Below, piece by piece: positions 1-43,214 of a stretch of 51,316 bases of DNA. The DNA comes from Gemmatimonadales bacterium (GTDB lineage: Bacteria > Gemmatimonadota > Gemmatimonadetes > Gemmatimonadales > JACORV01): NCBI GenBank assembly GCA_035541085.1, contig DATKNX010000191.1, positions 1 through 51,316 of the forward strand, written 5' to 3'. The position numbers were made by a program, and so were the translations under genes. Below the pieces are notes generated by a model that made no database searches, had not been told where the DNA came from, and saw only the letters and a program-made list of their open reading frames with translations. Every line of letters starts with the position of its first letter. Within the stretch, counting starts at the first letter, position 1.

Positions 1-1131
1 CGCGGCCGCGCGGCGCTGGGATCCGATCTCGTCTGGCCGGAGTCCGACACGCACTTCGAGGCGCTGTACGCGTACCTCGAGCTGGAGCGGCCGCGGTACC
101 TGCTGCGCCTCGGGCGGCAGCAGCGCGCGTCGGGCCTCGGCTTCTACGGGTTCGACGGTCTCACGGCCGCCTGGCGGCCGCTCGCGGCGCTGCGCATCGA
201 GGGCTACGGCGGGCGCGGGCTCGCCCGCGCTTCCATGGAGTCCTTCAACAGCTCGGCCATCGCGTCGCTCGATCCGCTGCGGCCGGACCTGGGCACCATC
301 CTGCTCGGGGCGTCGGTGTGGGCGGCTCCGTCGCCGCGCTCGACGTTCACGGCGAGCTACCAGCGCGAGCTGTTGAGCGACCGGAGCGGCCTGGTCTCCG
401 AGCTGGCGGCCTTCGACGGGCGGGTCGGGGTGGGGTCGCACCTCATCCTGTCGGGCTCCGCCAACGCCGACGTCGCACGGCGCCAGTGGGGCAAGGCCTC
501 GATCAGCGCCATGTACCTGGTGAGCCCGGCGCTCAGCGTCCAGGTCGAGGCGTTCCAGTACCGGCCGACGCTCGACCTGTCGAGCATCTGGGGCGTGTTC
601 ACGCCGGAGGCGCACGCCGGCTACTCCGCGTCGGCGAACGTGACCGTGAGCCGCGACCTGTCGTTCAACGGCGGCTTCACGTACCGCCACTGGCAGCCGT
701 TGAGCAGCGGCTCGCCGTTCCTCGCGGACGTCGGCAACTTCCAGCGCGAGCTCACCCTCGGCTCGCGGGCCCGGCTCGGGAGCTACACGCTCGACGGCAG
801 CTATCATCTGGAGATCGGCTTCGGCGGCGACGAGAGCGCCGGCGACCTGAGCGCCGCGTACGCGCCGGCCGGCAGCTGGAGCGCCGGCGTGCGCACGACC
901 GCCTTCCAGCAGACGGACATGTTCCGCGTCGCCAGCGGCACCGTGTACGGCCTCGGCGGCACGTTCCGGACGCCGCTCGGACGCCGCCTGGAGCTCAGCG
1001 CCGACCTGATGCGCTACCTGCACCGGCGCCTCGGCACCTCGACGGGTGTCGACTGGAACCAGACCCGACTCTCGGTGACGTTCGACTGGACCATGGGCGC
1101 CGACGCCGACCGCGTCGCGGCCTACCAGTGA
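1..1131 (+). CDS. Putative outer-membrane beta-barrel protein (5' partial, continues upstream of window)
   Basis: Frame 1 has no stop from base 1 to TGA 1129-1131 and has G/C-rich third positions. The track ORF 235..1131 is therefore only the Met-delimited part. Alternating strand-like segments (YTLDGSYHLEIGFGG, WSAGVRTTAFQQ, TVYGLGGTFRTPL, TRLSVTFDWTM) suggest a beta-barrel. No family recognised. Confidence 0.5.
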   Translation, partial: RGRAALGSDLVWPESDTHFEALYAYLELERPRYLLRLGRQQRASGLGFYGFDGLTAAWRPLAALRIEGYGGRGLARASMESFNSSAIASLDPLRPDLGTILLGASVWAAPSPRSTFTASYQRELLSDRSGLVSELAAFDGRVGVGSHLILSGSANADVARRQWGKASISAMYLVSPALSVQVEAFQYRPTLDLSSIWGVFTPEAHAGYSASANVTVSRDLSFNGGFTYRHWQPLSSGSPFLADVGNFQRELTLGSRARLGSYTLDGSYHLEIGFGGDESAGDLSAAYAPAGSWSAGVRTTAFQQTDMFRVASGTVYGLGGTFRTPLGRRLELSADLMRYLHRRLGTSTGVDWNQTRLSVTFDWTMGADADRVAAYQ

Positions 1132-2555
1132 CGGCCCGGGCCCTGACCGCGGCGTTCGCGCTCGCGGCGGCGCTGGCGGGCTCCGCCACCGCGACGGCCC
1201 TGCGGGCGCAGGTGCCCGCAGCCGCCGACTCGTTCCCGCACCAGCGTCACGCGCGGCTGTTCACGACCTGCGCGGCGTGCCACGCGGGGATCGCGACGGG
1301 CGACTCCGCGCACTTCCTGCCGACGCCCGAATCGTGCGCCAGCTGCCACAACGGCGATCTCGTGCGCGCGGTCAACTGGACGCCCGGGCCGCGGCGCATC
1401 ACCAACGTCACGATGGACCACGCGAGGCACCTCGCGCTGTTCGCGCGGCAAGGCATCCAGCCGGAGGCGGCCTGCCAGAAGTGCCACGCCGCGGCCGACA
1501 CGCTCGCCTTCATGGACGTGGGCCGCGCGAATCCCGAGCGGTGCGTGACCTGCCACGGGCGCGGCGCGCCCACCCACCTCGCGCAGCGCTCGTGCGAGCC
1601 GTGCCACACTCCGCTCGCGGACAGCCCCGGCCTCGACGTCGCGACCATCACGGCGTATCCCAAGCCGCCGTCGCACGACTCGGCGTGGACGCTGAGCCAC
1701 GGCGAGGCGGCGTCGGGCTCCACCTGCGCGGTGTGCCACGCGCAGCAGTTCTGCACGTCGTGCCACGTCAACGCGCGCAGCGTGAACGCGATCAAGAGCC
1801 TCGCCCGCGACGACCGCGTGGCGGCCATCGTCCGGACGCTGACGGTGACGTACCCCCGCCCGCCGTCGCACCTCTCGTCCGCGTGGCCTCGCGAGCACGG
1901 CGTGGTCGCCCGGGCCGGTGTGGCCGAGTGCGCCAACTGCCACACCCGGGAGTCGTGCCTCGGTTGCCACCGGGTCGAAGAGCGCGTGGCCCCGGTGCTC
2001 GAGCTGCCGCGACGCGCGAGCGGCGGCGCTCCGGGCGTGGACCTGTCGGGCATCAAGCCGGCCGACCACCTGCCCGACCAGCTGCTCCGCCACCGCATCG
2101 TCGCCGCCGGCGGGACGGCGAGCTGCAACGTCTGCCACCGCCCCGCCTACTGCGTCAGCTGCCACGCCGCCGCCAAGGCGCCCTCGTTCCACGGGCCCGA
2201 CTTCGTCGCGCGCCACGCCCGGCAGGCGTACGCCGCCGAGGCGGAGTGCGCGGCCTGCCACCAGACCCAGGTCTTCTGCCGCTCGTGCCACCGGATGCTC
2301 GGCGAAGCCAACACCGGGGCCCCCGTCGGCAAGTTCCACGACAAGCAGCCGGGCTGGCTGTTCGGCCACGGCGGCGTCGCGCGGCGGGCGATCGAGACCT
2401 GCGCCAGCTGCCACGAGCAGAACTTCTGCCTCAAGTGTCACTCGGCCGTCGGCGGCGAGGGCGTCAACCCGCACGGCCCCGGCTTCGATCCGCGGGTGGC
2501 GAGCAAGAACCCGGCGACCTGCCGGCTGTGCCACGGGGCGGTCATCCCTCGGTGA
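1128..2555 (+). CDS. Secreted multihaem c-type cytochrome, 16 CXXCH motifs
   Basis: GTG 1128 overlaps the upstream stop (GTGA). Sec-type signal peptide VTARALTAAFALAAALAGSATATALRAQ. I counted 16 CXXCH motifs (CAACH, CASCH, CQKCH, CVTCH, CEPCH, CAVCH, CTSCH, CANCH, CLGCH, CNVCH, CVSCH, CAACH, CRSCH, CASCH, CLKCH, CRLCH). The part of track ORF 318..2555 upstream of 1128 is an Arg/Pro-rich artefact overlapping the previous gene. Confidence 0.9.
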   Translation: MTARALTAAFALAAALAGSATATALRAQVPAAADSFPHQRHARLFTTCAACHAGIATGDSAHFLPTPESCASCHNGDLVRAVNWTPGPRRITNVTMDHARHLALFARQGIQPEAACQKCHAAADTLAFMDVGRANPERCVTCHGRGAPTHLAQRSCEPCHTPLADSPGLDVATITAYPKPPSHDSAWTLSHGEAASGSTCAVCHAQQFCTSCHVNARSVNAIKSLARDDRVAAIVRTLTVTYPRPPSHLSSAWPREHGVVARAGVAECANCHTRESCLGCHRVEERVAPVLELPRRASGGAPGVDLSGIKPADHLPDQLLRHRIVAAGGTASCNVCHRPAYCVSCHAAAKAPSFHGPDFVARHARQAYAAEAECAACHQTQVFCRSCHRMLGEANTGAPVGKFHDKQPGWLFGHGGVARRAIETCASCHEQNFCLKCHSAVGGEGVNPHGPGFDPRVASKNPATCRLCHGAVIPR

Positions 2556-2709
2556 ACGAGGAGTCTCGGGTACCAGCCCCGGCACGAAACCAGGCGCCGC
2601 GGCGCGTCTAGGTCATTTCGTCCGAGGCGGTGAGCCGTTGCTTCGCCAGTGCGCGTGGCAGAGGCCTCGGTTGCTATCCCGAGTACCTTAGACGAGCTTT
2701 CGGGACAGG

Positions 2710-3784
2710 ATGACCCATACCGTCACCCAGCCCGACCCGGCCCTCATCGCCGCCATCGTGGACATGGCGGCCGACGCCATCATCTGCGTGGGCCCGGACG
2801 ACCGCATCCTCTCCTGCAACCGCGGCGCCGAGAGGATGTTCGGCTGGTCGGCCCAGGACCTGGTGGGCCAGCCGTTCGCGATGCTGCTGCCGGAGGAGGA
2901 GCTGGCACGGGGCGAGATCGACTGGATGCGGCGCACCACGATCGCCGAGGGCGCCATCCGCGACTACGAGACGCGGCGGAAGACGAAGGACGGCCGCATC
3001 ATCGAGGTCAGCCTCACCCGCACGGTCGTGCACGACGAGTCGGGCAACCTCATCGGCTACTCGGCGATCCTCCGCGACATCTCGGATCGCAAGCGCATCG
3101 AGCGGCAGCTGCTGACGGCCGAGCGGCTGGCCACGGCCGGCCAGGTCGCCGCGGGGGTCGCGCACGAGATCGGCGCCCCGCTCACCGCCATCTCGGTGGC
3201 GGTGGACCACATGCTGCAGTCGCGCTGCAACTTCTGCGGCGGCGGCGAGGAGATGCAGGTGCTGCTGTCGCAGACCGACCGCATCGCCAAGCTCGCCCGC
3301 CGGCTCGTGAACCTCGCCAAGCCCGCGGGCCTGGTGTTCACGGCCACGAGCGCGAACGAAGTGGTGGAGCAGGCCACGAGCCTGGTCCAGCCGCAGCTCG
3401 GCCGCCATCGCATCCGGCTCGAGCTGGCGCTGGCGCCCGACCTGCCGGCCATCCACGCCGACGAGGCGCAGCTCCAGCAGGTGTTGATCAACCTGTTCCT
3501 GAACGCGCAGCGGGCCATGGCCGAGACGGGCGGGCTGCTGCGCGTCGAGACCGGCGCGCCGGCCCGGGACATGGTGGACATCACGGTGTCCGACAACGGC
3601 CCCGGCATCGCCGAGGCGGACCTGCCGCACATCTTCACGCCGTTCTTCTCGCGCTCCGGCGGCACGGGGCTCGGCCTTTCGCTCGCGGCGCAGATCGTGA
3701 AGTCGCACCGCGGCACCATCGACGTCGCCTCGCGCGTGGGCCAGGGCGCGACGTTCACCATCCGGATTCCCGCATCGGTGAGCC

Positions 3785-3792
<8 letters not shown>
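2710..3792 (+). CDS. Soluble PAS-domain sensor histidine kinase (NtrB-like)
   Basis: N-terminal PAS-like region with no obvious TM segment. H-box HEIGAPLTAI, N-box LINLFLNAQRA, G-boxes DNGPGI and GTGLGLS. Confidence 0.9.
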
Positions 3793-5233
<1,441 letters not shown>

Positions 5234-5281
5234 ATACGCGCCGCGCGCCCCGCGCGGACACGTTGTCTCATGGCACTCCGA

Positions 5282-5307
5282 GGCCCCGGCGCCAGCGCGC
5301 CGGGGCC
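5282..5307 (+). terminator. GC-rich hairpin after the NtrC-like gene
   Basis: Perfect 11-bp stem GGCCCCGGCGC / GCGCCGGGGCC with loop CAGC, followed only by TTC (weak U-tract). A second small hairpin CCGCGCG-ccc-CGCGCGG lies at 5241-5257. Confidence 0.45.
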
Positions 5308-5363
5308 TTCGCGTAACCAACCACCCCACAACGAGTTACCAAAGCGGCGGCGATTCGCTCCCG

Positions 5364-5379
5364 TGGTACGCGATGCGCA
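5364..5379 (+). promoter_or_regulatory. Candidate sigma-54 (-24/-12) promoter
   Basis: TGGTACGcgatGCGCA. GG (5365-66) and GC (5377-78) have the canonical 12-nt register of TGGCACG-N4-TTGCW. The C-to-T change in the -24 box and GC instead of TT before the -12 GC weaken it. It lies downstream of a sigma-54 activator gene and 14 nt before the USP-like start. Confidence 0.3.
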
Positions 5380-5392
5380 ACTATGCGCTGGC

Positions 5393-6121
5393 GTGATCGA
5401 GTCCCTTCTCATCGCCGTGGACGCCGCTCCCTTTGCGGATCGGGTAGCCGGGTGGCTGCCGGATCTCGTGAGCGCGGGCGTGCGCCGGGCGACGCTGTTC
5501 CACGCCATCGAGGGCGTGGGGACGGAGTGCGTGAAGGAGCTCGACGACCTGCGTCCCCGCCTCGACCGGCTCGCCGTGCAGCTGACGGCGCGCGAGGTGG
5601 AGGCGGACATCGCCCTGAAGCGCGGCGACCGCGTGCGCTGGCTGACCTCGCTCGCGGAGCTCCGCACCAGCCAGGTGCTGGTGCTGGGCGCGCGCTGCTC
5701 GGCGGCGCCGCATCAGCGCGCGATCGGCGCGACGCTGCGCCTGCTGCTCGAAGAGTCACACGTGCCGTTGCTCGTGCTGCCGGCGGCGAAGGACGCGGCG
5801 ACCCCGCGGCTCTTCGACAAGCCGGTGCTGCTGTCGAACGGCCGCACGGCGGCCCAGCTCGAGTCCCGGGCCCGGGCGCTGATTCCGGTCGCGCTGCGCG
5901 TCGTCACGCACGCGGCCGACGCCCCGCCGCCCGCCGAAGCCTCGCTCATCGTGGTGGGCCCCGAGCTCGTGGGCCACACCTTCGAACGCATCATCACCAG
6001 TGGTAGCTCCAGCCCGGTGCTCGTTTTCCCGGCCCCGTCCCTTTCCGTCCATCCTGAGAAGGGCCCGAGCACCGTAGTCACCCCACCGTCGGAAGCATCG
6101 GGCACTGCACGCCAGCGCTGA
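5393..6121 (+). CDS. Universal stress protein-like protein (tandem USP-like halves)
   Basis: In-frame GTG 5393 gives VIESLLIAVDAAPF..., a typical USP N-terminal strand. The second half (PVLLSNG...SLIVVGPELVGHTFERIITSGSSSPVLVF) resembles a second USP fold. The track start at 5270 would add an unlikely leader. Family call is by eye only. Confidence 0.55.
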   Translation: MIESLLIAVDAAPFADRVAGWLPDLVSAGVRRATLFHAIEGVGTECVKELDDLRPRLDRLAVQLTAREVEADIALKRGDRVRWLTSLAELRTSQVLVLGARCSAAPHQRAIGATLRLLLEESHVPLLVLPAAKDAATPRLFDKPVLLSNGRTAAQLESRARALIPVALRVVTHAADAPPPAEASLIVVGPELVGHTFERIITSGSSSPVLVFPAPSLSVHPEKGPSTVVTPPSEASGTARQR

Positions 6122-6149
6122 GTCGGCAACGACCTCAGGCGGCGTGTGG

Positions 6150-6181
6150 TGCCCGACTTCCGAGTCGGGCATCGTCGTTTT
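6150..6181 (+). terminator. Rho-independent terminator
   Basis: Stem TGCCCGACT / AGTCGGGCA (9 bp), loop TCCG, then TCGTCGTTTT. Confidence 0.6.
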
Positions 6182-6211
6182 GGAGCGGTGGAGCGGCGCC
6201 GGGCGGCGCGG

Positions 6212-6763
6212 CTAGAGGGCCGACAGCTCCGCGAGCGTCTCGGCGCCGTAGAAGAGCCGGATGTACTTCGCCTGCGTCGGCGTGAGCCGGCGCACGGCCC
6301 ACGCGAGGTGCACGAAGTGCGGCTCGACCGGGGGCCGGAGCGGGTGCATGCCCAGCTCCTCCGGCAGGTGGCTGCCCTTGCGCGCGTTGCAGGTCGAGCA
6401 GGCGGTGACGACGTTCGTCCACGCGTTGGTGCCGCCGCGCGAGAGCGGGACCAGGTGGTCGCGCGTGAGGCACTCGCGCGGCCGGAGCTGGTGCTGCGTG
6501 CGCGTGCAGAACTGGCAGCGGTAGCCGTCGCGGGCGAACAGGAAGGTGTTCGTCACCTGGCGCCGGAAGCGCCGCGGCACGTGCACGAACTTGACCAGGC
6601 GGATCACCGCGGGACGCGGCACGGCCAGGTGCTCGGAGCGCGCCAGGCGGCCGGCGTCCGACTCGACGATCTCCGCCTTCCCGTCGATGACGAGCCGCAG
6701 CGCCCGCCGCACCGGTACCATGGTGAGCGGCTCGAACGACGCGTTCAACGCGAGGCATCGCAC
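6212..6763 (-). CDS. HNH endonuclease family protein
   Basis: MRCLALNASFEPL... N-terminus typical of the small stand-alone HNH family. Cys pairs CQFC and CSTCN flank the DHLVPLSRGGTNAWTNVVTAC HNH core. Confidence 0.85.
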   Translation of the reverse strand: MRCLALNASFEPLTMVPVRRALRLVIDGKAEIVESDAGRLARSEHLAVPRPAVIRLVKFVHVPRRFRRQVTNTFLFARDGYRCQFCTRTQHQLRPRECLTRDHLVPLSRGGTNAWTNVVTACSTCNARKGSHLPEELGMHPLRPPVEPHFVHLAWAVRRLTPTQAKYIRLFYGAETLAELSAL

Positions 6764-6798
6764 CCGGAATACCCTCCGAGGCCCGGCCGGCCATCCAC

Positions 6799-6834
6799 AA
6801 AAAAACCCGTCTCGCTCGTGGCGAACGGGACGGG
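6799..6834 (-). terminator. Rho-independent terminator downstream of argH
   Basis: On the minus strand: CCCGTC...GACGGG stem with an inner TCGC/GCGA pairing, followed by seven U (plus-strand A-run 6799-6805). Confidence 0.55.
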
Positions 6835-6959
6835 ATGAGGCGGGTCGATCGGTTGTCGTAAGACCACGTCCCTGGAGCGCCCTACCCGGCGCCCGTCGTG
6901 GATACTAGCGCGCGGGCGGCGCCTCGGCAAGCGGCCGGGGCCCGGCGCGCGACGCGCGG

Positions 6960-18221: not shown

Positions 18222-19044
18222 CCGCCGCCTCGAGCCGCTGCCGGAACAGCGTGGCGATCCGCAGGATCGACTCCGACGTGTCACTCTTCGGCGAGGCATC
18301 CAGCAGCTCCGCGTATCCCCGATAGCGGCCGTCCGCTTCGGCGAGGAACGCGCCGAACACCACCGGAGCCCCGGTGCGCGCCGCGAACAAACCCGGCCCT
18401 TCCGGTGTCTGCGTGGGCCGCCCGAAGAACGGCACCCACGTGTGGCTGCGCATCGCGCCCTGGTCGGCGACCAACCCCACCAGCTTGCCTGCGGCGAGAG
18501 CGGCCGGCACCGCGGTCCGCGCCTCGGGCAGCGGAATGGTCTGGATGCCCATCGCCCGGCGCGACCGCTCCACCAGGTCGGCCACCCACGGGTTGGACGG
18601 CGGCTTCACCACGCCGGCCACCGGCATGCCGATCGCGGCGGCCCACGCCGCCGCCAGCTCCCAGTTGCCGAGGTGGCCGGTCAGGACGATGGCCCCGCGT
18701 CCCTCGGCGGCCAGCGAGCGCAGCAGGTCCTCGCCCTCGACCCCCCGCACGAACGGCACCACGGCCCGGGGACCGCCGCTGGTCAACCGCAGGGAATCGG
18801 TCATCACCCGGCCGAAGTGCGCGTACATCCGGCGCGCGAGCGCCGCGCGCTCGGCGGCGGCGAGCGCGGGGAACGCGGCCGCGAGATTCTGGTCGGCCAC
18901 CTCTCGGCGCAAGCCGAGGACGTCGCGCGCGGCCCGCCCGAGCGCCGCGCCGAAGCCCAGCGCCGCGGGGCGCGGCAGCGGGCGCAGCATGGCCAGCCCC
19001 GCCCGCGCCGCGAGATAGACCGGGTAGTCGCTGCGCCGTCTCAC
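18145..19044 (-). CDS. Lipid A biosynthesis (Kdo2-lipid IVA) acyltransferase, LpxL/HtrB family
   Basis: HX4E acyltransferase motif (GHLGNWE), the ADQ motif (VGLVADQG) and the C-terminal EQYLWTHRLW typical of the family. Confidence 0.85.
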   Translation of the reverse strand: MRRRSDYPVYLAARAGLAMLRPLPRPAALGFGAALGRAARDVLGLRREVADQNLAAAFPALAAAERAALARRMYAHFGRVMTDSLRLTSGGPRAVVPFVRGVEGEDLLRSLAAEGRGAIVLTGHLGNWELAAAWAAAIGMPVAGVVKPPSNPWVADLVERSRRAMGIQTIPLPEARTAVPAALAAGKLVGLVADQGAMRSHTWVPFFGRPTQTPEGPGLFAARTGAPVVFGAFLAEADGRYRGYAELLDASPKSDTSESILRIATLFRQRLEAAVRLAPEQYLWTHRLWHRAPPPPGGP

Positions 19045-20126
19045 CGGCGGTGGGCCAGCGCCGCGCGGTAGACGGTCTCGGTCGCCGCGGCGGTCCGCGC
19101 GAGCGAGAAGCGCTCGCGCGCCGTCCGGCGGGCCCGCTCGCCGAGCGCGCGGCGCAGCGCGGCATCGCCCAGCAGGCGCGCGAGCGCCTCGGCGAACGCG
19201 CCGCTGTCGCGCGGCGGCACGAGCCAGCCGTCCTCGCCGTGGCGCACGAGGTCGACGTTGCCCCCCGCGCGCGACGCCACCACCGGCAGGCCGAGCGCCA
19301 TGGCTTCAAGCAGCGCCTGCGACAGCCCCTCGTGCCGCGACGGCAGCACCACCACGTCGAACAGCCGGTAGAAGGGAAGCACGTCGGGTCGGAACGGCAC
19401 GCACCGCACGCCGTGCTGCGGGGCCTCCCGGGCGAGCGCGCGCAGCTCCGCGTCCTCCGCGACGCCGACGAGCGCGAGGCTCACCGGGATCCGCAGCGCC
19501 GGCAGCGCCTCGAGCAGCACCGCGTGGTCCTTGCGGCGGGCCACGACGCCCACCGTGGGCCGCCAGGGCCGCCACCCGGCGAGCGCCCGTGCCGTCTCGA
19601 TCTCGGCGCCCGACACGGCGCGGTCGATCCGCGAGACGTCCACGCCGTTGGGAACCACGCAGATGCGCCACGGCGGGGCGCCGCGCCGGACGAGGGCCCG
19701 CGCCACCGAGCGGCTCACGGCGATCGTGCGGTCGGCGACGAAGCCGTTCAGCAGGACGGACACGGGGAGCGAGCGCGGCATCTGCCGGCGGGTCATCACG
19801 CAGGCCGCGTCGAGCCGCCCGCCGAGCCGGGCGAGGCGGCACGCCGCGCGGTCGCGCGAGGCGTGGGAATTGACCACGTCCACCCCGGCCTCGCGGACCA
19901 GGCGCGCGATCGCAGCCGCGAGGGCGGCGCGGCGGTCGAAGGCGAGCGGCGCGACGTCGAGCCCCGCCGCGTGCGCCAGCGCGGCGAGCACGGTGCCCGG
20001 GCGGCAGCCGATCAGCACCCGGTGCCCGGCCGCCCGCTGCGCGGCCGCCAGCGCCGCGATGGAGACGGTCGAGCCCGCGCCGCCGCCCTGGTGCGTCAGG
20101 TGCAGGATGGTCAGCGCGCCGGCCAC
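19041..20126 (-). CDS. Family 1 (GT-B) glycosyltransferase
   Basis: N-terminus ILHLTHQGGGAGS and an EX7E-type region EGLSQALLEAMALGLPVV. GTG 20126 avoids the 65-nt overlap with msbA implied by the track start at 20228. A 4-nt overlap links it to the lpxL-like start. Confidence 0.8.
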   Translation of the reverse strand: MAGALTILHLTHQGGGAGSTVSIAALAAAQRAAGHRVLIGCRPGTVLAALAHAAGLDVAPLAFDRRAALAAAIARLVREAGVDVVNSHASRDRAACRLARLGGRLDAACVMTRRQMPRSLPVSVLLNGFVADRTIAVSRSVARALVRRGAPPWRICVVPNGVDVSRIDRAVSGAEIETARALAGWRPWRPTVGVVARRKDHAVLLEALPALRIPVSLALVGVAEDAELRALAREAPQHGVRCVPFRPDVLPFYRLFDVVVLPSRHEGLSQALLEAMALGLPVVASRAGGNVDLVRHGEDGWLVPPRDSGAFAEALARLLGDAALRRALGERARRTARERFSLARTAAATETVYRAALAHRR

Positions 20127-20163
20127 CGCCGGGGCGCTGGACGCCGGCGCCCCCGCGGCGGGG

Positions 20164-21999
20164 TCAGTCGACGAGGGCGGGGCGGGGCTCCGCACCGAAC
20201 TGCAGCGTGTAGAGGCGGCGGTAGACACCGCCCGAGGCCAGGAGCTCCTCGTGACGGCCGCGCTCGACGATCCGCCCGCGCTCCAGCACGACGATGCACG
20301 TCGCGTGCTGGACCGTGGACAGCCGGTGCGCGATCACGAACACCGTCCGGCCCTCGAGCAGGCGGTCGATCGCGTCCTGCACCAGGTGCTCCGACTCCGA
20401 GTCGAGCGCGCTGGTGGCCTCGTCGAGGATGAGGATCGGCGGATCGCGCAGCAGCGCGCGGGCGATGGCGATGCGCTGTCGCTCGCCGCCGGAGAGCCGC
20501 GTGCCGCGCTCGCCGAGCAGCGTGTCGTAGCCGTCGGGCAGCGCGGCGATGAAGCCGTGCGCGTTCGCCGCGCGCGCGGCGGCCTCGATCGCCGCGGCGT
20601 CGAACCGGTCGAGTGCGCCGTACGCGATGTTCGAGCGCACCGTGTCGTTGAACAGCACGGTCTCCTGGCTGACGATGCCCATCAGGCGGCGCAGCGAGGG
20701 GAGCGTGATCTCCCGCAGGTCGCGCCCGTCGAGCGTGATCGCGCCGCTCGTGGGCTCGAAGAAGCGCGGCAGCAGGTCCACCAGCGTGCTCTTGCCCGCT
20801 CCACTCGCCCCCACGATCGCGATCACCTCGCCCTTGCGCGCCTGCAGCCCCACGTTCTGCAGCACCATCGCCTGCCCGTCGTAGCTGAACGACACGTCGC
20901 GGAACGCGATGGCGTCGGCGAACCCGGTGACCTCCACACGGCCGATCGCCAGGGCCTCCGTCGGCGGCTCGTCGAGCACCTGCAGCACGCGGTCGCCCGA
21001 GGCGAGCGCGTTCTGGTACTGCGCCGGCCAGTTCGACAGGAACTTGAGCGGCACCAGGAGGCGGAGGGCGACGAACAGGAACATGATGAAGCTCTCGGGC
21101 GCGATGGAGGCGGCCGGCCCCGTGGCCATGCTCGCGCCCACCCACAGGAGCGCCACCGTGACGAGCGCCCCGAAGCTCTCGCTGATGGGCCCGGAGAGCG
21201 TCGCCAGGCGCTGCATCTTGATCACGCCGCGCGCGTACCGGTCCGCCGCCGCGAAAAAGCGCTTCCGCTCGAACGGCTCGGCGGCGTACGCCTTCACGAG
21301 CCGCACGCCGGCCACCGTCTCCTGCATCAGGGCGGTGAGGTCGCCGCGGTCGTCCAGCGTGCGCAGGAAGCCGCGGTGCAGCCGCCGCACCAGCGGGCGC
21401 AGGCCGAGGATCAGCACGGGCGCGAGGACCAGCGACAGGATCGTGAGCCGCCACGACAGCGCGATCAGCATCGCCAGGTACACGGCCACCGTCGCGCACG
21501 ACTGCACGAAGTTCAGGGCGTCGTTGCCGACGATCGGCTTCACGGCCTCCGCGTCGGCCAGCATCCGGCTGAGGAGCTGCCCGCCCTTGGTCTGCTGGTA
21601 GTAGCCGAGCCCCATGCCCTGGAGGTGCTCGTACAGCCGCATCCGCAGGTCGCGCACGACCTTCTCCTGCACCACCGCGACGCTGACGCGCGAGTAGTAG
21701 ACGAGCAGGTTCTTCGCCACCATCGCGACCAGGATGACGATGATGACGTTGCGCAGGGCCGCCTGGGTGTCGTGCTCGGGCAGCAGCGGGCCCACCACCC
21801 GGTTGAGCAGCTGGTCCACCAGGTTCGCGCCCGCGGGCGGCAGCAGCGACGACGCGTGGAACACGACGCGCAGGAAGGGGATGACCAGGGCGAAGGTGAA
21901 CCCGTCGAACACCGTCCCGACGACGGTCGCCGCCAGTGCGCCGGCCACCAGCGGGAGGTACGGCCGCACGAACCGGAACAGCCGGCCGTAGCGTCCCAC
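20164..21999 (-). CDS. msbA: Lipid A export ABC transporter (permease/ATPase fusion)
   Basis: Six-TM N-terminal half. Walker [10 protein letters not shown], signature [14 protein letters not shown], Walker [10 protein letters not shown]. Lies beside lipid A acyltransferase and glycosyltransferase genes. Confidence 0.88.
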
Positions 22000-22000
22000 G

Positions 22001-23572
22001 CTAGCGGCTCGCCCGCGGCGCCAGGAGCGCCACCGGGAGGATCATCTCGTCGGGCGACGCGCCGCCGTGCAGGAACGCGCCGCGGTAGCGCGCCTGGTAC
22101 TCGCGCAGCTTGGTCGGGTAGACGAAGAAGTGGTCCTCGCGCGCGATCACGCAGCGCACGCCAAGCCCGCGCGCCGGCAGCCCGTAGCGGACCGGGTCCT
22201 CGACGGTGATCGCGGCGTCCGCCTGCTCCGCCCGCAGGTCCTCGCCGAACTTGAAGCGCAGGTTGTTCGTCGCGTCCCGCTTCGCGAACACCGTCGCCGG
22301 GCTGTGGCAGTGGATCGAGCCGTGGTCGGTCGTGAGCACCACCGGCACGCGCCGCCGCTCGGCCTCGACCAGCGCCGCCTTCAGGTTCGAGCGCTCGAAC
22401 CACGCGCAGGTCAGCGCGCGCAGGGCGGCCGCGTCGCGCGCCACCTCGTACAGGATGGCGTTCTCGGACCGGCCGTGCGTCAGCTGGTCCACGAAGTTGA
22501 ACACCATGGCGGTCACGCCGTCCTGCGCCAGCATCGCCGGGAGGCGGCGCTGCACGTCGTCGCTCTCCGCGGCGCCGAACAGCTTCTCGTACCGGCAGGG
22601 GACGGGCCGGCCGGTGATGCGCTCCAGCTGCCGCGCCAGCAGGTCGTGCTCGTGGGCGTTGAGGCTCTCGGCCTCCTCCTCCGTCCACCACTGGGGGTAC
22701 TGCGTGGCGATGTCGCGGGGCAGCAGCCCGGCGAAGATGGCGTTGCGGCTGTAGGGCGTCGCGCTCGGCAGGATGCTGAAGTAGTGGCTCGTCTCGACGT
22801 CGAACAGCGGCGTGACGGACGGCAGCAGCGCCTCCCACTGGTCGAGGCGCAGGCAGTCCACGACCACGAACAGCACGCGGCCGTGCTCGCGGAGCACCGG
22901 CAGCACCATCTCCTCCACCACGTCGGGCGAGAGCGCCGGCCGGTCGCGCTCGGGGTGCGCGATCCACTCCGGGTAGTGCTGCGCGATGAACGTCCCGAAA
23001 TCGCGCCGCAGGCCCTCGAGCAGGGCCTGCAGCGCCTGCGCGAGCCCGGGCTCCGCCGCCTCGGCCAGCTTGAGGTCCCAGCTCATCAGCTCCGCCCACA
23101 GCTCGATCCAGTCGCGCCAGCCGAGCGCCGTGCCGCGGCGCGCCTCCAGCTCGCGGAAGCGCGTCACGAATTCGCGCGACAGGTGCTGCTGGCGGATCCG
23201 GTCCCCTTCGAGGAGCCGCGTGACGACCGACAGGATCTGGCGCGGGTGCAGCGGCTTGATCAGGTAGTCGTCCACTGCCATCCCGATGGCTTCGCGCAGC
23301 ACCGCCGGGTCCTCCGACTTTGTCACCATCACCACCGGCACCGCGGGATCCAGCTCGCGGATCGCGTCGAACAGCTCGAGGCCGCGCCGTCCCGGCATCT
23401 GCTCGTCCACGAGCACCACGCCGTACGGCTGGCGGCGCAGCAGCTCGAGCGCGTCGTCGCCGTGGGCGGCGGCCGCGACCTGGTAGCCCTGGTCGGCGAG
23501 GAAGCGGCGGTGGGACTCGAGGCTCTCGATCTCGTCGTCCACCCAGAGAATGCTCTTCGGGCGCGAGGCCAT
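22001..23572 (-). CDS. PorX-like response regulator: REC domain fused to a PglZ (alkaline-phosphatase-superfamily) domain
   Basis: ILWVDDEIESLESHRRFLADQGY...VLVDEQMPG...VVMVTKSEDP...DDYLIKP receiver domain, followed by about 380 aa with PglZ-type motifs (FVVVDCLRLDQW, SILPSATPYSRNAIFAG, VLTTDHGS). Length (523 aa) and layout match PorX-type proteins. Confidence 0.85.
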   Translation of the reverse strand: MASRPKSILWVDDEIESLESHRRFLADQGYQVAAAAHGDDALELLRRQPYGVVLVDEQMPGRRGLELFDAIRELDPAVPVVMVTKSEDPAVLREAIGMAVDDYLIKPLHPRQILSVVTRLLEGDRIRQQHLSREFVTRFRELEARRGTALGWRDWIELWAELMSWDLKLAEAAEPGLAQALQALLEGLRRDFGTFIAQHYPEWIAHPERDRPALSPDVVEEMVLPVLREHGRVLFVVVDCLRLDQWEALLPSVTPLFDVETSHYFSILPSATPYSRNAIFAGLLPRDIATQYPQWWTEEEAESLNAHEHDLLARQLERITGRPVPCRYEKLFGAAESDDVQRRLPAMLAQDGVTAMVFNFVDQLTHGRSENAILYEVARDAAALRALTCAWFERSNLKAALVEAERRRVPVVLTTDHGSIHCHSPATVFAKRDATNNLRFKFGEDLRAEQADAAITVEDPVRYGLPARGLGVRCVIAREDHFFVYPTKLREYQARYRGAFLHGGASPDEMILPVALLAPRASR

Positions 23573-41209: not shown

Positions 41210-41400
41210 GTTGGCTTGCCGCCAACGGGGTAATGGCAGGCTAACGTGTTCAGCTACAACGTCTTGAGTTGAAAGTAGCTCTTGGGCACGGCCATTGCCA
41301 AGGATAGGGTCGAAGCTGCAGCCGGTGGCGATGGAGTTCCTGAGGGGGGCGTCGCCTCGGTGTCCATGATAGCCTGCCAATTGGCAGGCTATCGTGTTTT
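41210..41400 (+). ncRNA. Candidate structured RNA or attenuator-like element (unclassified)
   Basis: Lower-GC, non-coding stretch between convergent genes. Hairpin 1 (41210-20 with 41235-45) is 11 bp including two G-U pairs that exist only on the plus strand. Inner hairpins are AGCTAC/GTAGCT (41252-80) and CTTGG/CCAAG (41281-302). It ends in the terminator at 41368-41400. TTGACA lies at 41189-94. Not matched to any RNA family I know. Confidence 0.3.
41368..41400 (+). terminator. Rho-independent terminator
   Basis: GATAGCCTGCC-aatt-GGCAGGCTATC (perfect 11 bp) followed by GTGTTTT. The T-run is on the plus strand only and abuts the stop codon of the convergent gene. Confidence 0.7.
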
Positions 41401-43214
41401 CAGGGGGTTCCTTCATCCGCGGCGCCCGCGGCCTGCTCCACCATACGCGCCGCGCGCCACCGCACCACCCACCACACGATCGCCACCACCAGGCTCGCCG
41501 CGATGAGTCCCTGCACCGCCAGTGACTGCACGGTCGGGTAGACGCCGAAGAACTCGCTGCGCGGCGCGCCGCGCACCAGCGTCGAGGGGATCAGCGCGCC
41601 TTCCTGCAGCTCCTTCACGCCGCTCCCCGCGAAGACGAACGACATGAAGAAGAGGGTCGCGCCCGTCACGGCGAAGAACGGCCGCAACGGGATCCGGATG
41701 CCGAAGCGCTCGATGCCGACGTAGACGACGAGCAGCACGACGGCGCCGGACGCGAGCCCCAGCGTGATCGCGGCCGCGCCGCCGGCGCCGCCGCTCACGT
41801 AGAGCGCCTTGTAGAAGAGCACCGTCTCGAAACCCTCGCGGTAGACGGCGAGGAACGCGACGGACGCGAGCGCGAGGCTGCGGCCGCTGGCCGCGGCGCG
41901 CTCGACCTTCTCGCGCAGGAACCGCTGCCAGACCTCGACCTCCACCTTCGACAGCAGCCAGTACGACACGTAGAACAGGACCGCCGACGCGACCAGCATC
42001 ACGCCGCCCTCGAGCGCTTCGCGCTGCGCCGCCCCGCCCTCGAGCAGCCACTCCAGCAGCCCCGCCGTCGCGAGGCTGGCGAGGAGCGCGAGCCCCACGC
42101 CCCAGCGCACCGAGCGGCGCTGCTCCGTCGAGCCGCTGCGCAGCACCACGGCCATGATGGCCGCCACGATGAGGATCGCCTCGAACCCCTCGCGCACGAT
42201 GAGGAGGAAGCTCTCCACCAGGAAGCCCCAGGCCGTGCGGCTCCCGCCGAGGACCGCTTCGGCGGAATCCACCGTGCTCGCGAGCACGCCGTAGTCCGCC
42301 CCGGCGTCGGCCGCGCCCGTCTCCACCGCCTCGCGCAGCGCGGCGAAGCGACGCTCCGCGCGCGAGGCCAGCGACGCGTCGGCGATCCGGACCTTGCCCT
42401 CGACCGCCTCGAACGAGAGGTAGGCGTCGAGCACCCGGCTCGCCGCCGTCCGGTCGCCCTCCCGCGCCCCGCTCATCGCCTGCGCGAGCTGGGCGCGGAC
42501 CGTCGCGAACGCCACCACGTCGCCGCCCGCCGCGCGCCGCGCGAGACTGTCCGAGAGACTCAGCACCCAGGCGACGGCGTCCCACCGGCCGTCGTGCGAG
42601 AGCACGGCGCCGAACGGCGCCATCGCCGTGCCGGGTACGCCGTAGGTGATCCGGCGGTAGTAGTCGAGCGGCGCGACGTGCGCGGCGCCGGCCTCCACCA
42701 GGTTCGCGGGCGGCGGATTCAGCCCGACGGCCGCCGGGCCGTCGCCGCGTCCCGCCGTTCCGTGACACTGCGCGCAACGCGTCGCGTAGATGCGGCCACC
42801 CGTGGCGAGCGACGGCTCGCGCTGCGGCCCTTCGTCCAGCGCCGAGCCCAGGGCCGCGCCGAGGCCGTGCTCGATCGCCGCGGCGCGCCCGGCCACCGAG
42901 TCCGGCGGCGCCTGATCCGCCAGCATCCTGGCCATCGCGCCCAGGTCCCGCAGCGCCGATTCCGCGAGGTTGGCCGGCAGCGAGCGCGCGGCGCGCAACG
43001 CCTCGCTCACGAACAGCTTCGCCTCGTCGGCCTCCTCCGGCTGCGTGAAGGCCCCGTGATCCCAGGCGAGAGCGTACTCCTGGGCGGCGAGGTGTACCGT
43101 GGCGACGACCCTGCGGGCGGCGTCGCGCGCCGCTGGCGTGAGCGGTTCGGCCTGGAGCGCACTGGCTCGGGCGATGGCGATGGCGAAGACGACGGCGAGG
43201 CCTGGGCGGCCCAT
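41400..43214 (-). CDS. Cytochrome c / FTR1-family iron permease fusion
   Basis: Signal peptide, a helical N-terminal domain, and one haem c site (CAQCHG with downstream GVPGTAMAPF). The polytopic FTR1 half carries two REGxE motifs (REGFEAILIV, REGFETVLFY). Confidence 0.9.
   Translation of the reverse strand: MGRPGLAVVFAIAIARASALQAEPLTPAARDAARRVVATVHLAAQEYALAWDHGAFTQPEEADEAKLFVSEALRAARSLPANLAESALRDLGAMARMLADQAPPDSVAGRAAAIEHGLGAALGSALDEGPQREPSLATGGRIYATRCAQCHGTAGRGDGPAAVGLNPPPANLVEAGAAHVAPLDYYRRITYGVPGTAMAPFGAVLSHDGRWDAVAWVLSLSDSLARRAAGGDVVAFATVRAQLAQAMSGAREGDRTAASRVLDAYLSFEAVEGKVRIADASLASRAERRFAALREAVETGAADAGADYGVLASTVDSAEAVLGGSRTAWGFLVESFLLIVREGFEAILIVAAIMAVVLRSGSTEQRRSVRWGVGLALLASLATAGLLEWLLEGGAAQREALEGGVMLVASAVLFYVSYWLLSKVEVEVWQRFLREKVERAAASGRSLALASVAFLAVYREGFETVLFYKALYVSGGAGGAAAITLGLASGAVVLLVVYVGIERFGIRIPLRPFFAVTGATLFFMSFVFAGSGVKELQEGALIPSTLVRGAPRSEFFGVYPTVQSLAVQGLIAASLVVAIVWWVVRWRAARMVEQAAGAADEGTP

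What the first reader, a model, noticed from the sequence alone, without database searches (positions are those of the whole stretch)
1..2555. Beta-barrel-like protein translationally coupled to a 16-haem cytochrome: candidate porin-cytochrome electron conduit
**Seen in the sequence.**
- A gene open from base 1 encodes a protein made of alternating strand-like segments.
- Its stop overlaps (GTGA) the start of a Sec-exported protein with 16 CXXCH sites in about 475 aa.
- A PAS kinase, an NtrC-type regulator and a USP-like gene follow directly.

**Established knowledge.** Trans-outer-membrane electron conduits (MtrAB, PioAB, and the Geobacter OmbB/OmaB/OmcB porin-cytochrome clusters) are encoded as adjacent porin and multihaem-cytochrome genes.

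**Inference.** This pair could be such a module, with its own redox-responsive two-component system. I recognise neither protein as a member of the named families, so it may be an undescribed variant.
Basis: partly seen in the sequence, partly recalled or inferred. Interest (0 to 1): 0.7.

Follow-up and report, generated by a model that had tools for sequence, protein, structure and literature searches.

The report
Gemmatimonadales outer-membrane barrel–cytochrome electron conduit
The window opens inside a conserved four-gene operon of uncultured soil Gemmatimonadales that probably forms a 45-haem wire carrying respiratory electrons through the cell envelope; it resembles known metal-respiration conduits but is built from different protein families.

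Summary
Bases 1-1131 encode the last 376 codons of a protein with no family assignment. Its stop overlaps (GTGA) the start of a 475-aa protein with a Sec-type N-terminus and 16 CXXCH motifs. A PAS histidine kinase and a sigma54/NtrC-type regulator follow; the USP call is weak.

A 99.5%-identical contig (L001) supplies the missing upstream part. The full-length protein 1 (472 aa) has a signal-peptide-like N-terminus and is predicted as a 22-strand outer-membrane beta-barrel. Two more cytochrome genes precede it: a nonahaem lipoprotein related to the OcwA/OmhA surface reductases, and a membrane-anchored NrfH-type 20-haem protein.

The four genes co-occur in 24 Gemmatimonadota species loci, sometimes in permuted order. 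The barrel gene is always followed by a multihaem cytochrome gene, down to 24% identity. A conserved sigma54 promoter with an upstream inverted-repeat block precedes the operon.

The best reading is a quinol-to-surface (or reverse) porin-cytochrome conduit. It is a new variant of a known kind: it does not belong to MtrAB/PioAB by sequence, haem count or strand number. Function and direction are inferred, not shown.

The parts
1..1131 (+). 3' 376 codons plus stop of gene C, an outer-membrane beta-barrel protein (full length 472 aa; residues 97-472 are in the window).
   Evidence: - The frame is open from base 1.
- It is 99% identical to P0001.
- The AF2 model has 22 strands, pLDDT 81.5 and pTM 0.77.
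- Foldseek top hits are FimD, AlgE, OprD and MOMP barrels, E down to 4e-11.
- The strands are amphipathic, z about 4.7.
- No Pfam, NCBIfam or PDB-sequence family matches.
1128..2555 (+). Gene D, a 475-aa cytochrome with a Sec-type N-terminus and 16 c-type haem sites. The GTG start overlaps the stop of gene C (GTGA).
   Evidence: - 16 CXXCH motifs.
- All 16 motifs plus 16 further His are invariant in 66 homologues, which implies all-bis-His ligation.
- About 28 aa per haem.
- Pfam gives only Cytochrome_C7, Paired_CXXCH_1 and MtrC-domain hits.
- The N-terminal module resembles ActA and the c3 domains of HmcA.
1128..1208 (+). Signal-peptide-coding region of gene D (about 27 codons).
   Evidence: Read directly from the sequence: a basic n-region, an Ala/Leu-rich h-region and an ATA/RAQ boundary, with no Cys and therefore no lipobox. 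The AF2 model has a helix at residues 2-23. SignalP was not available.
1722..2444 (+). Five dihaem repeats of gene D, of the form H-x6-7-[W/F/L]-x3-H[G/R]-x8-10-CXXCH-x4-5-CXXCH. The haem pairs are at residues 200/209, 268/277, 333/342, 374/384 and 425/434.
   Evidence: Repeat listing; invariant Cys and His columns.
2710..3792 (+). Cytoplasmic PAS-HisKA-HATPase sensor histidine kinase. The domain layout leaves no room for a membrane segment.
   Evidence: - Pfam: PAS 1.5e-17, HATPase_c 3.4e-27.
- NCBIfam: AtoS-, ZraS- and NtrB-like.
- Syntenic with the cytochrome cluster in about 11 relatives.
3785..5233 (+). NtrC-type response regulator (receiver, sigma54-interaction AAA+ domain and Fis-type HTH). 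It overlaps the kinase gene by 8 nt.
   Evidence: - Pfam: Sigma54_activat 2.9e-68, Response_reg 1.3e-25, HTH_8 2.1e-15.
- NCBIfam: AtoC-, NtrC- and ZraR-like.
- A cognate sigma54 promoter lies upstream of gene A in L001 and relatives.
5270..6121 (+). Conserved gene of uncertain family, weakly USP-like. The start is uncertain: L001's gene call corresponds to a GTG at window 5393.
   Evidence: Pfam Usp E = 0.014, below the cut-off. Syntenic in L005, L016, L020 and L021.

Best explanation
The first two genes of the window are the distal half of a four-gene operon, A-B-C-D, that is conserved in Gemmatimonadota.

**Components**
- **B** (off-window, 553 aa) is anchored in the inner membrane by one N-terminal helix. 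It starts with an NrfH/NapC-type quinol-dehydrogenase module and continues as a chain of 20 haems into the periplasm.
- **D** (window 1128-2555) is a 16-haem, all bis-His, very haem-dense wire.
- **C** (window 1-1131) is a 22-strand outer-membrane barrel.
- **A** (off-window, 500 aa) is a nonahaem lipoprotein related to the cell-surface terminal reductases OcwA and OmhA.

**Proposed mechanism (inferred)**
- C is made in stoichiometric coupling with D and sheathes it, as MtrB sheathes MtrA.
- A sits at the outer mouth of the barrel.
- Electrons from the quinol pool pass from B to D (inside C) to A, and then to an insoluble or large extracellular acceptor such as Fe(III)/Mn(IV) minerals or humic substances.
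- The hardware could also run in reverse.

**Regulation (inferred)**
- The adjacent cytoplasmic PAS kinase and NtrC-type activator switch the operon on through a sigma54 promoter upstream of gene A.

**Shown here:** gene content, haem and ligand conservation, the barrel prediction, synteny, and the promoter motif.
**Inferred:** protein localisation, the C-D complex, the direction of electron flow, and the acceptor.
For: **Operon recovered from L001**
- L001 is 99.5% identical to the window (53 mismatches in 10,079 bases). It carries genes A, B, C and D, with 1-4-nt overlaps at the B/C and C/D junctions.

**Barrel (gene C)**
- AF2 predicts 22 long antiparallel strands at pLDDT 81.5.
- The top 50 Foldseek PDB hits are all OM barrels; the best TM-scores are to the 24-strand FimD/PapC ushers, TMq about 0.5.
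- The strands are amphipathic.
- The N-terminus A-x-A-Q is conserved in all homologues.
- Two distant members hit Pfam Porin_4 and one hits OMP_b-brl.

**Cytochrome D**
- 16 invariant CXXCH motifs plus 16 invariant extra His.
- 28 aa per haem, lower than the roughly 33 quoted for MtrA in PMC5566968.

**Gene B**
- It has an N-terminal helix followed by HDNRFC(L/T)xCHLM, with the Met of CXXCHXM invariant.
- It has 20 haem motifs.
- It hits NrfH (2j7a_C) at 7e-4.

**Gene A**
- The lipobox Cys is conserved in 18 of 19 sequences.
- It has 8 CXXCH plus 1 CX4CH motif, but only 8 conserved extra His.
- Its matches to OmhA (6qvm, 9e-10) and OcwA (6i5b, 1.4e-7) are co-linear. PDB identities are from PMC9250108.

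**Synteny**
- The four genes co-occur in 24 species-level loci, all but one titled Gemmatimonadota (L009 is titled only 'bacterium').
- The order A-B-C-D is found in 13 loci. It is permuted in L017-L019 while membership is kept.
- C followed by an overlapping multihaem cytochrome gene persists in Longimicrobiales (37% identity) and in a 24%-identity relative.
- ccmF/G/H or ccmE/F genes lie beside the cluster in L026 and L029.

**Regulation**
- TGGCA[CT]-N6-TGC lies 90-120 nt upstream of gene A in 11 of 11 close loci.
- An invariant inverted-repeat block lies about 120 nt further upstream, within otherwise unconserved DNA.

**Anaerobic context**
- PFL and its activase are in the window.
Against: - **No experimental data exist.** All relatives are MAGs or metagenome contigs, with no cultured carrier among the 24 loci.
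- **No structural evidence for the C-D complex.** Nothing shows that D enters C, and no multimer modelling was possible.
- **The predicted barrel is smaller than MtrB.** It has 22 strands, against 26 in MtrB.
- **The location of lipoprotein A is unknown.** It could sit on the surface, on the periplasmic face of the outer membrane, or on the inner membrane.
- **A could be an enzyme.** Its family (NrfA/ONR/OcwA) includes soluble-substrate reductases, and one haem of A probably lacks a His distal ligand.
- **Direction is ambiguous.** In several relatives a Rieske/cytochrome b module with a mono-haem cytochrome c lies beside the cluster. PMC13264449, citing He et al. 2017, notes similar petB/petC co-occurrence in the candidate PCC4 clusters described in Fe(II)-oxidiser genomes.
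- **No structural analogue for D.** Foldseek found none.
Confidence: 0.6

Rival explanations
1. The hardware is the same but runs inward. The conduit takes electrons from extracellular donors (Fe(II)/Mn(II) minerals, reduced humics, or a syntrophic partner) and delivers them to the quinone pool or to an oxidase, as proposed for MtoAB/PioAB.
For: - In relatives, a divergent Rieske/cytochrome b, DOMON, multihaem cytochrome and mono-haem cytochrome c module lies directly beside the cluster (L027; L031).
- PMC13264449, citing He et al. 2017, notes similar petB/petC co-occurrence in the candidate PCC4 clusters described in Fe(II)-oxidiser genomes.
- The window also encodes an FTR1 iron permease fused to a cytochrome c domain.
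- All 16 haems of D are bis-His, so D has no intrinsic direction.
Against: - The Rieske/cytochrome b module is absent from this window and from L001.
- The dedicated quinone-pool link is an NrfH-type module. In characterised systems this module oxidises quinol (established knowledge of NrfH/CymA).
- Gene A resembles terminal reductases (OcwA, OmhA), not known Fe(II) oxidases such as Cyc2.
- PFL in the window points to an anaerobic, electron-acceptor-limited lifestyle.
Confidence: 0.2
2. This is a periplasmic respiratory reductase system, not a trans-membrane wire. B and A act like NrfH-NrfA, as a quinol dehydrogenase plus a catalytic multihaem reductase for a soluble substrate such as nitrite, hydroxylamine, sulfite or tetrathionate. 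D is a periplasmic electron store like HmcA. C is a substrate-diffusion porin.
For: - A belongs to the NrfA/ONR/OTR/OcwA superfamily (PMC9250108).
- A has 9 haem motifs but only 8 conserved distal His, so one haem may be open-coordinate.
- B carries the NrfH CXXCHXM signature.
- The N-terminal module of D resembles the c3 domains of the periplasmic 16-haem HmcA (1gws, 2.4e-10).
Against: - A substrate porin would not need strict translational coupling to a 16-haem cytochrome across the phylum down to 24% identity.
- B carries 16 haems beyond the NrfH module and D carries 16 more. That is far more wire than a periplasmic enzyme needs.
- The HmcA match is confined to one module and is not co-linear, and no hmcB-F genes are nearby.
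- OcwA and OmhA, the closest solved relatives of A, are cell-surface mineral reductases (PMC7829351, PMC9250108).
Confidence: 0.12
3. The barrel-cytochrome adjacency is incidental. C is an unrelated outer-membrane protein that happens to sit between cytochrome genes.
For: C has no family assignment and no cofactor motif of its own.
Against: - C and a multihaem cytochrome gene are adjacent in every locus examined where sequence continues: 22 GTDB loci plus L026, L029 and L031.
- They usually overlap by 4 nt, and they stay together when gene order is otherwise permuted.
Confidence: 0.03

Closest known systems
MtrCAB of Shewanella (and MtoAB/PioAB)
   Same: - It follows the same logic: an outer-membrane barrel gene beside a haem-dense periplasmic multihaem cytochrome gene, plus a lipoprotein multihaem cytochrome, forming an insulated trans-outer-membrane wire (PMC7198977; PMC8805035).
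- The window has the barrel-cytochrome pair with overlapping genes.
- Gene A weakly matches MtrA (6r2q_A) at 1e-3.
   Different: - No MtrB_PioB, DmsE/MtrA or OmcA/MtrC model is hit.
- The periplasmic cytochrome has 16 haems, not 10.
- The barrel is predicted with 22 strands, not 26.
- The lipoprotein is OcwA-like, not MtrC-like.
- The quinol dehydrogenase is encoded in the operon and fused to 16 extra haems.
Geobacter porin-cytochrome clusters (OmbB-OmaB-OmcB; PMC4282303, PMC4245776)
   Same: [quoted passage not shown]
- The proteins have no Pfam family of their own.
   Different: - Haem counts are 16 and 9 here, against 8 and 12.
- The predicted barrel has 22 strands, against about 20.
- An inner-membrane 20-haem NrfH-type gene is included here.
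- The 2014 survey (recalled from knowledge, not read here) did not list Gemmatimonadota.
Candidate PCC3 clusters of Fe(II)-oxidiser genomes (He et al. 2017, PMC5566968)
   Same: - A four-part cluster: a porin, an extracellular multihaem cytochrome, a periplasmic cytochrome with many haems and a low aa/haem ratio, and an inner-membrane component.
- Function is inferred only from genomics.
   Different: - The PCC3 inner-membrane protein is a five-helix di-haem-b-type protein, not an NrfH-type c-cytochrome.
- PCC3 haem counts have medians of 34 and 21.
- PCC3 hosts are Proteobacteria.
OcwA (Thermincola potens, 6I5B) and OmhA (Carboxydothermus ferrireducens, 6QVM) surface terminal reductases
   Same: - Gene A is co-linear with both (E = 1.4e-7 and 9e-10).
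- It shares the CEACHGPGxxH, CxxCHxPH and ADGSxGVHN motifs.
- Like OcwA, it has nine haem motifs.
   Different: - OcwA and OmhA belong to monoderm bacteria and have no barrel partner.
- Gene A is a lipoprotein of a diderm bacterium and is encoded with an outer-membrane barrel.
- Gavrilov et al. (PMC7829351) note a clade of uncharacterised nonahaem relatives in Gram-negative bacteria.
NrfH / CymA (NapC/NirT family quinol dehydrogenases)
   Same: Gene B has the single N-terminal helix and the first-haem motif CXXCHXM, with the Met invariant. It hits NrfH (2j7a_C) at 7e-4.
   Different: NrfH and CymA are tetrahaem proteins of about 160-190 aa. Gene B has 553 aa and 20 haem motifs.
HmcA, the 16-haem high-molecular-weight cytochrome c of Desulfovibrio (1GWS, 1H29, 1Z1N)
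   Same: - It has the same haem number.
- It is the best PDB profile hit of D (2.4e-10), through c3-like modules.
   Different: - The match covers only residues about 40-165 of D, against repeated c3 domains, and is not co-linear.
- The five paired-CXXCH repeats of D are absent from HmcA.
- No hmcB-F genes are nearby.

Membership tests
MtrAB / MtoAB / PioAB porin-cytochrome family | The barrel is homologous to MtrB/PioB (Pfam MtrB_PioB; NCBIfam MtrB/PioB family model). | tested here: not met
   - The window fragment, full-length P0001 and 38 diverse family members give no Pfam hit to this model. Only two weak Porin_4 hits and one OMP_b-brl hit appear.
- The window fragment gives no NCBIfam hit.
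- Profiles A1 and A3 do not hit MtrB in the PDB at E <= 10.
- MtrB is not among the top 50 Foldseek hits.
MtrAB / MtoAB / PioAB porin-cytochrome family | The periplasmic partner is a decahaem of the MtrA/DmsE type. | tested here: not met
   - D has 16 haem motifs.
- No DmsE/MtrA NCBIfam hit is found.
- The profile hits 6r2q_A only at E = 0.008, over about 50 residues.
MtrAB / MtoAB / PioAB porin-cytochrome family | The barrel and periplasmic multihaem cytochrome genes are adjacent and co-conserved. | tested here: met
   GTGA overlap in the window. The genes are adjacent in all loci where sequence continues.
MtrAB / MtoAB / PioAB porin-cytochrome family | The cytochrome is physically threaded through the barrel. 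| not testable with these tools
   No multimer prediction or experiment was available. The 22-strand prediction implies a lumen comparable to plug-containing 22-strand barrels; that comparison is an inference.
Geobacter Pcc (OmbB/OmaB/OmcB) | [quoted passage not shown] | tested here: met
   L001 genes C, D and A. The lipobox of A is conserved in 18 of 19 sequences.
Geobacter Pcc (OmbB/OmaB/OmcB) | Sequence homology to OmbB, OmaB and OmcB, with 8- and 12-haem partners. | not tested
   - No Geobacter sequences could be obtained, so homology is untested.
- The haem counts differ: 16 and 9 here.
OcwA/OmhA branch of the NrfA/ONR multihaem superfamily (gene A) | Co-linear sequence similarity to OcwA/OmhA, and a nonahaem motif set. 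| tested here: met
   6qvm at 8.9e-10 and 6i5b at 1.4e-7, with ordered matching segments including the C-terminal GVHN motif. 8 CXXCH plus 1 CX4CH motifs are conserved.
OcwA/OmhA branch of the NrfA/ONR multihaem superfamily (gene A) | Cell-surface location and mineral-reductase activity. | not testable with these tools
   Only a lipobox can be read from the sequence, and lipoprotein sorting rules in Gemmatimonadota are unknown.
NapC/NirT/NrfH quinol dehydrogenases (gene B) | An N-terminal membrane helix followed by a haem 1 motif of the form CXXCHXM, and a tetrahaem module. | tested here: met
   - The helix WRIGLVSGFTLALLGVSLAGY is followed by CLSCHLM.
- M58 is invariant in 18 of 18 sequences.
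- NrfH (2j7a_C) is hit at 7e-4 over residues 24-116.
- No specific Pfam NapC/NirT model was hit, so this is a weak sequence match supported by motifs.
Hmc complex (HmcA 16-haem cytochrome) | Co-linear homology to HmcA, and hmcB-F partner genes. | tested here: not met
   The match is limited to one c3-like module. The neighbours are the barrel, the NrfH-type gene and the two-component system.
sigma54-dependent operon under an NtrC-type two-component system | An activator with receiver, sigma54-AAA+ and HTH domains, and a -24/-12 GG-N10-GC promoter with upstream activator sites. | tested here: met
   - The activator domains are present.
- TGGCA[CT]N6TGC is conserved upstream of gene A in 11 close loci, with an invariant inverted-repeat block about 120 nt further upstream.
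- The promoter lies off-window, in L001 and relatives.
- Regulator-promoter pairing is inferred.

The most novel reading that the evidence does not exclude
Uncultured Gemmatimonadota, a major soil, peat and groundwater phylum not known for metal respiration, carry a lineage-specific, fully hard-wired envelope-spanning conduit of about 45 haems: a 20-haem NrfH fusion, a 16-haem wire inside a new 22-strand barrel family, and an OcwA-like nonahaem surface reductase. It would link the quinol pool to extracellular minerals or humics without any soluble periplasmic carrier. It would have been assembled independently of Mtr and Pcc from modules otherwise seen in Gram-positive electrogens.
Probability: 0.35. 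Interest if true: 0.8.

Novelty: new variant of a known kind. Interest (0 to 1): 0.62.

Why it matters
**A possible overlooked role for a common soil phylum.** Gemmatimonadota are abundant in soils, peat and aquifers, but they are usually treated as aerobic or phototrophic heterotrophs. In the papers I could search, extracellular electron transfer in the phylum is limited to one horizontally acquired MtrCAB (PMC8805035) and a few ImcH/CbcL homologues (PMC6295460). A conserved, vertically distributed conduit would make them candidate players in Fe, Mn and humic redox cycling in fluctuating-redox soils.

**A new set of parts.**
- An independent barrel family that can be compared with MtrB.
- A 28-aa-per-haem, 16-haem wire with a regular dihaem repeat.
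- An NrfH-to-wire fusion that could remove the need for periplasmic shuttles.

These parts could be useful for bioelectronic engineering. The operon is compact (about 6 kb), so heterologous tests are feasible.

Tried and rejected
- **Foldseek of the D model against the PDB.** It gave no hit at E <= 10. Multihaem cytochromes modelled without haems have little regular structure, so this is uninformative.
- **Exact-sequence look-up of the window's kinase.** It is not on record, so the window's own contig annotation could not be retrieved.
- **GC3-based gene calling in this 73.5% GC window.** It preferred antisense frames over the real cytochrome frame. I abandoned it in favour of Pfam-verified ORFs.
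- **sigma70 promoter and terminator scan of 1-6900.** Results were at chance level and nothing was usable.
- **sigma54 motif in the window.** No match anywhere. The TGGCAG...TTGCT string in the D-kinase spacer has the wrong spacing, judged by eye. The operon promoter is off-window.
- **tRNA and Rfam scans of the window.** Nothing was found.
- **HmcA orthology for D.** Considered and rejected, because only one module matches.
- **MtrB homology through transitive distant members.** Tested and rejected.
- **Literature searches for a prior description of this Gemmatimonadota cluster.** No description was found. The library is limited to open-access papers and bioRxiv, so this is absence of evidence only.

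Full report
**1. What is in the window**

The window has 73.5% G+C. Frame 1 is open from base 1 to a TGA at 1129-1131, which is 376 codons. A GTG at 1128 overlaps that stop (GTGA) and opens a 475-codon ORF ending at 2555.

- The second protein has a Sec-type N-terminus and exactly 16 CXXCH motifs. Every one of its 32 Cys lies in a motif.
- Downstream lie a soluble PAS-HisKA-HATPase kinase (2710-3792) and an overlapping receiver/sigma54-AAA+/HTH_8 regulator (3785-5233).
- A further conserved ORF (5270-6121) matches Usp only below threshold (E = 0.014).
- The first protein hits nothing in Pfam or NCBIfam.

The only soft spot is the USP label.

**2. Recovering the missing 5' part**

A protein search with the fragment found about 180 relatives of 455-473 aa. 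None is annotated, and where a source names the organism it is a Gemmatimonadales/Gemmatimonadota MAG, apart from one Acidimicrobiales-labelled sequence, P0059.

The best hit, P0001 (99% identical), lies on a 14-kb JGI contig, L001. L001 is 99.5% identical to the window over 10,079 bases, and window base 1 corresponds to L001 position 3933.

L001 shows that the window starts inside the third gene of a four-gene array.

- **Gene A** (500 aa)
  - The lipobox ...LVATAC is conserved in 18 of 19 homologues.
  - It has 8 CXXCH plus one CX4CH motif.
- **Gene B** (553 aa)
  - It has one N-terminal hydrophobic helix followed by HDNRFCLSCHLM.
  - It has 17-18 CXXCH plus 2-3 CX3-4CH motifs, about 20 haems in all.
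- **Gene C** (472 aa)
  - The N-terminus MARTLRTLAAAALCAAGPAAGPLAAQ|SV looks like a signal peptide.
- **Gene D** is the 16-haem protein.
- B/C and C/D overlap by 1 and 4 nt.

**3. The barrel**

- An AF2 model of P0001, built from a 77-sequence alignment, has mean pLDDT 81.5 and pTM 0.77. It has an N-terminal helix (residues 2-25) followed by 22 long antiparallel strands.
- All top Foldseek PDB hits are outer-membrane barrels. They include the FimD and PapC ushers (TMq about 0.5), AlgE, OprD/Occ, MOMP and OmpF, with E down to 4e-11.
- The strands show the alternating polar/apolar pattern expected of a membrane barrel. The even-odd hydropathy difference is 2.36, against 1.32 +/- 0.22 for within-strand shuffles, and 0 of 1000 shuffles reach it.
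- By sequence the family is an orphan.
  - There is no Pfam or PDB-sequence match to any known family for P0001 or for the A1 profile, and none in NCBIfam for the window fragment.
  - Of 38 members at 22-34% identity, two hit Porin_4 weakly and one hits OMP_b-brl. None hits MtrB_PioB.
- An exhaustive profile search finds 406 50%-identity clusters at E <= 1e-3, so the family is real but modest in size.

**4. The 16-haem cytochrome**

- In 66 homologues (40-91% identical to the window protein), all 16 CXXCH motifs are invariant. So are 16 additional His. This gives one distal ligand per haem, which suggests that every haem is bis-His and six-coordinate, as in an electron carrier rather than an enzyme.
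- The mature protein has about 28 residues per haem. This is denser than the roughly 33 quoted for MtrA-type wires (PMC5566968).
- The architecture has three parts:
  - an N-terminal pentahaem module;
  - five dihaem repeats of the form H-x6-7-[W/F/L]-x3-H[G/R]-x8-10-CXXCH-x4-5-CXXCH;
  - a terminal haem.
- The N-terminal module weakly resembles ActA of alternative complex III and the c3 domains of the 16-haem HmcA. The HmcA match is to one module only and is not co-linear, so D is not an HmcA orthologue.
- The AF2 model (pLDDT 78.8) has no Foldseek neighbour in the PDB.

**5. The two upstream cytochromes**

- **Gene B** carries the NrfH hallmarks.
  - It has a single N-terminal helix and the first-haem motif CXXCHXM, with the Met invariant in 18 of 18 sequences.
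  - It matches NrfH (2j7a_C) at E = 7e-4.
  - About 16 more haems follow the NrfH-type module, at 27.7 aa per haem.
- **Gene A** matches OmhA (6QVM, 8.9e-10) and OcwA (6I5B, 1.4e-7) in co-linear segments, including the C-terminal ADGSxGVHN motif.
  - These are the cell-surface mineral reductases of Carboxydothermus ferrireducens and Thermincola potens (PMC9250108, PMC7829351).
  - A has nine haem motifs but only eight conserved extra His. One haem may therefore lack a His distal ligand, which would parallel the penta-coordinate haems described in OcwA (PMC9250108).

**6. Conservation of the arrangement**

A pattern scan of one genome per GTDB species returned 24 loci. All but one (L009, titled only 'bacterium') are titled as Gemmatimonadota MAGs, from sources that include soil, peat, fen, permafrost and groundwater.

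- A-B-C-D occurs in that order in 13 loci.
- In L017-L019 the order is permuted (A-C-D-A, B-C-D-A, A-C-D-B) but the components stay together.
- C-D adjacency holds in all 22 loci where sequence continues past C, usually with a 4-nt overlap.
- It also holds in three further loci:
  - a 5.4-Mb contig, where ccmF/G/H follow D;
  - a Longimicrobiales MAG at 37% identity;
  - a 24%-identity relative, where the partner is a shorter multihaem cytochrome.

The barrel-to-cytochrome coupling is therefore the invariant core of the family.

The kinase/regulator pair lies within 8 kb in about 11 loci. In several of these it is separated from D by an inserted, divergently transcribed module encoding Rieske, cytochrome b, DOMON, multihaem cytochrome and mono-haem cytochrome c proteins.

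**7. Regulation**

An alignment of the DNA upstream of gene A from 11 loci shows otherwise unconserved sequence with three invariant islands.

- A -24/-12 element, TGGCA[CT]-N6-TGC[TG], lies 90-120 nt before the start codon.
- A block TGTCGCAnTnTGTCC...TTGTGAATTCGGACACAAGAGAT lies about 120 nt further upstream. It contains inverted repeats (TTGTG...CACAA and TGTCC...GGACA).
- A leader block TCCGTAyGAnTAC lies just after the -12 element.

This is the classical layout of a sigma54 promoter with upstream activator sites. It gives the adjacent NtrC-type regulator an obvious target, although the pairing is inferred. The promoter lies outside the window.

**8. Interpretation**

The parts list is:
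- a quinol-dehydrogenase-type inner-membrane cytochrome;
- a very haem-dense all-bis-His cytochrome translationally coupled to a large outer-membrane barrel;
- a lipoprotein cytochrome related to surface mineral reductases.

These are the parts of a porin-cytochrome extracellular-electron-transfer pathway, as in MtrCAB/CymA or Geobacter Pcc (PMC7198977, PMC4282303, PMC4245776). I consider this the best explanation (0.6).

- **Direction.** Outward flow (respiration of Fe(III), Mn(IV) or humics) is favoured by the NrfH-type module, by the OcwA-like protein, and by the PFL and activase genes in the window. Inward flow is a serious rival (0.2), because of the Rieske/cytochrome b modules next to the cluster in relatives.
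- **Periplasm-only reading.** An NrfHA-like reductase system is possible (0.12), but it does not explain the obligatory barrel coupling or the 36 extra wire haems.
- **Incidental adjacency.** Synteny excludes this.

**9. Relation to known systems and novelty**

Functionally, this looks like a porin-cytochrome conduit. It is not a member of the Mtr/Mto/Pio family:
- the barrel and cytochrome models are not hit;
- the haem number is 16, not 10;
- the predicted strand number is 22, not 26.

Homology to Geobacter OmbB/OmaB/OmcB and to PCC3 could not be tested. The haem counts differ from both, and the inner-membrane component differs from that of PCC3.

I found no description of this cluster in the searchable literature. 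Gemmatimonadota appear only through one horizontally acquired MtrCAB and a few ImcH/CbcL homologues (PMC8805035, PMC6295460), and generic porin-cytochrome surveys do not detail it (PMC13264449). I rate it a new variant of a known kind, with interest 0.62.

**10. Limits**

- Everything about localisation, complex formation, direction of electron flow and substrate is inferred.
- No cultured organism carries the cluster among the loci found.
- The signal peptide and lipobox calls were made by eye and from conservation, not with a dedicated predictor.

Noticed in passing
window 41400-43214 (-): A 604-aa ORF combines an FTR1-family iron permease domain with a mono-haem cytochrome c domain (Pfam FTR1 7e-25, Cytochrome_CBB3 8e-10). 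It is a redox-coupled iron-uptake candidate in the same genome as the conduit.
   Followed up: no
window 46011-46958 and 46955-49315 (+): A radical-SAM glycyl-radical activase is followed by a pyruvate-formate-lyase-like enzyme (PFL-like 6.6e-211). This indicates an anaerobic fermentative capacity in this Gemmatimonadales genome.
   Followed up: no
window 22001-23572 (-): A response-regulator receiver domain is fused to a PglZ domain, next to an ABC exporter (20164-21999) and a GT4 glycosyltransferase (19041-20228).
   Followed up: no
window 6212-6763 (-): A stand-alone HNH endonuclease gene lies between the USP-like gene and argH. It holds the same position in L001 and L027.
   Followed up: partly
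L001 139-185 and 260-300 (upstream of gene A, off-window): - Invariant blocks TGTCGCAnTnTGTCC...TTGTGAATTCGGACACAAGAGAT are a probable activator-binding site with inverted repeats.
- A sigma54 -24/-12 element follows.
- A conserved leader block TCCGTAyGAnTAC follows that, and could pair with a downstream TACGGG.
- All of these sit within otherwise unconserved DNA across 11 loci.
   Followed up: partly
L027 11531-16061; L031 5574-10188: In several relatives a divergently transcribed module sits directly beside the cytochrome cluster. It encodes cytochrome b and Rieske proteins in both loci, plus a DOMON protein, a multihaem cytochrome and a mono-haem cytochrome c in L027, and two multihaem cytochromes in L031. 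The module is absent from the window and from L001.
   Followed up: partly
alignment A3 (distant barrel relatives, e.g. P0400 and P0417 from Longimicrobiales): Distant members of the barrel family carry an extra N-terminal loop with two nearly invariant Cys (consensus TPDGxAVxCxxGxxxCxxYRPG). This loop is missing from the window's subfamily and probably forms a disulphide-stabilised loop.
   Followed up: no
L026 11650-14764; L029 8182-10532: Cytochrome c maturation genes (ccmF, ccmG-like and ccmH, or ccmE and ccmF) lie immediately downstream of the barrel-cytochrome pair in two distant relatives.
   Followed up: no
window 1247-2146 (-) and other antisense frames: Long antisense ORFs with very high GC3 overlap the cytochrome gene; one example is 293 aa on the minus strand. 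They are artefacts of the 73.5% G+C content and misled a GC3-based gene caller.
   Followed up: yes
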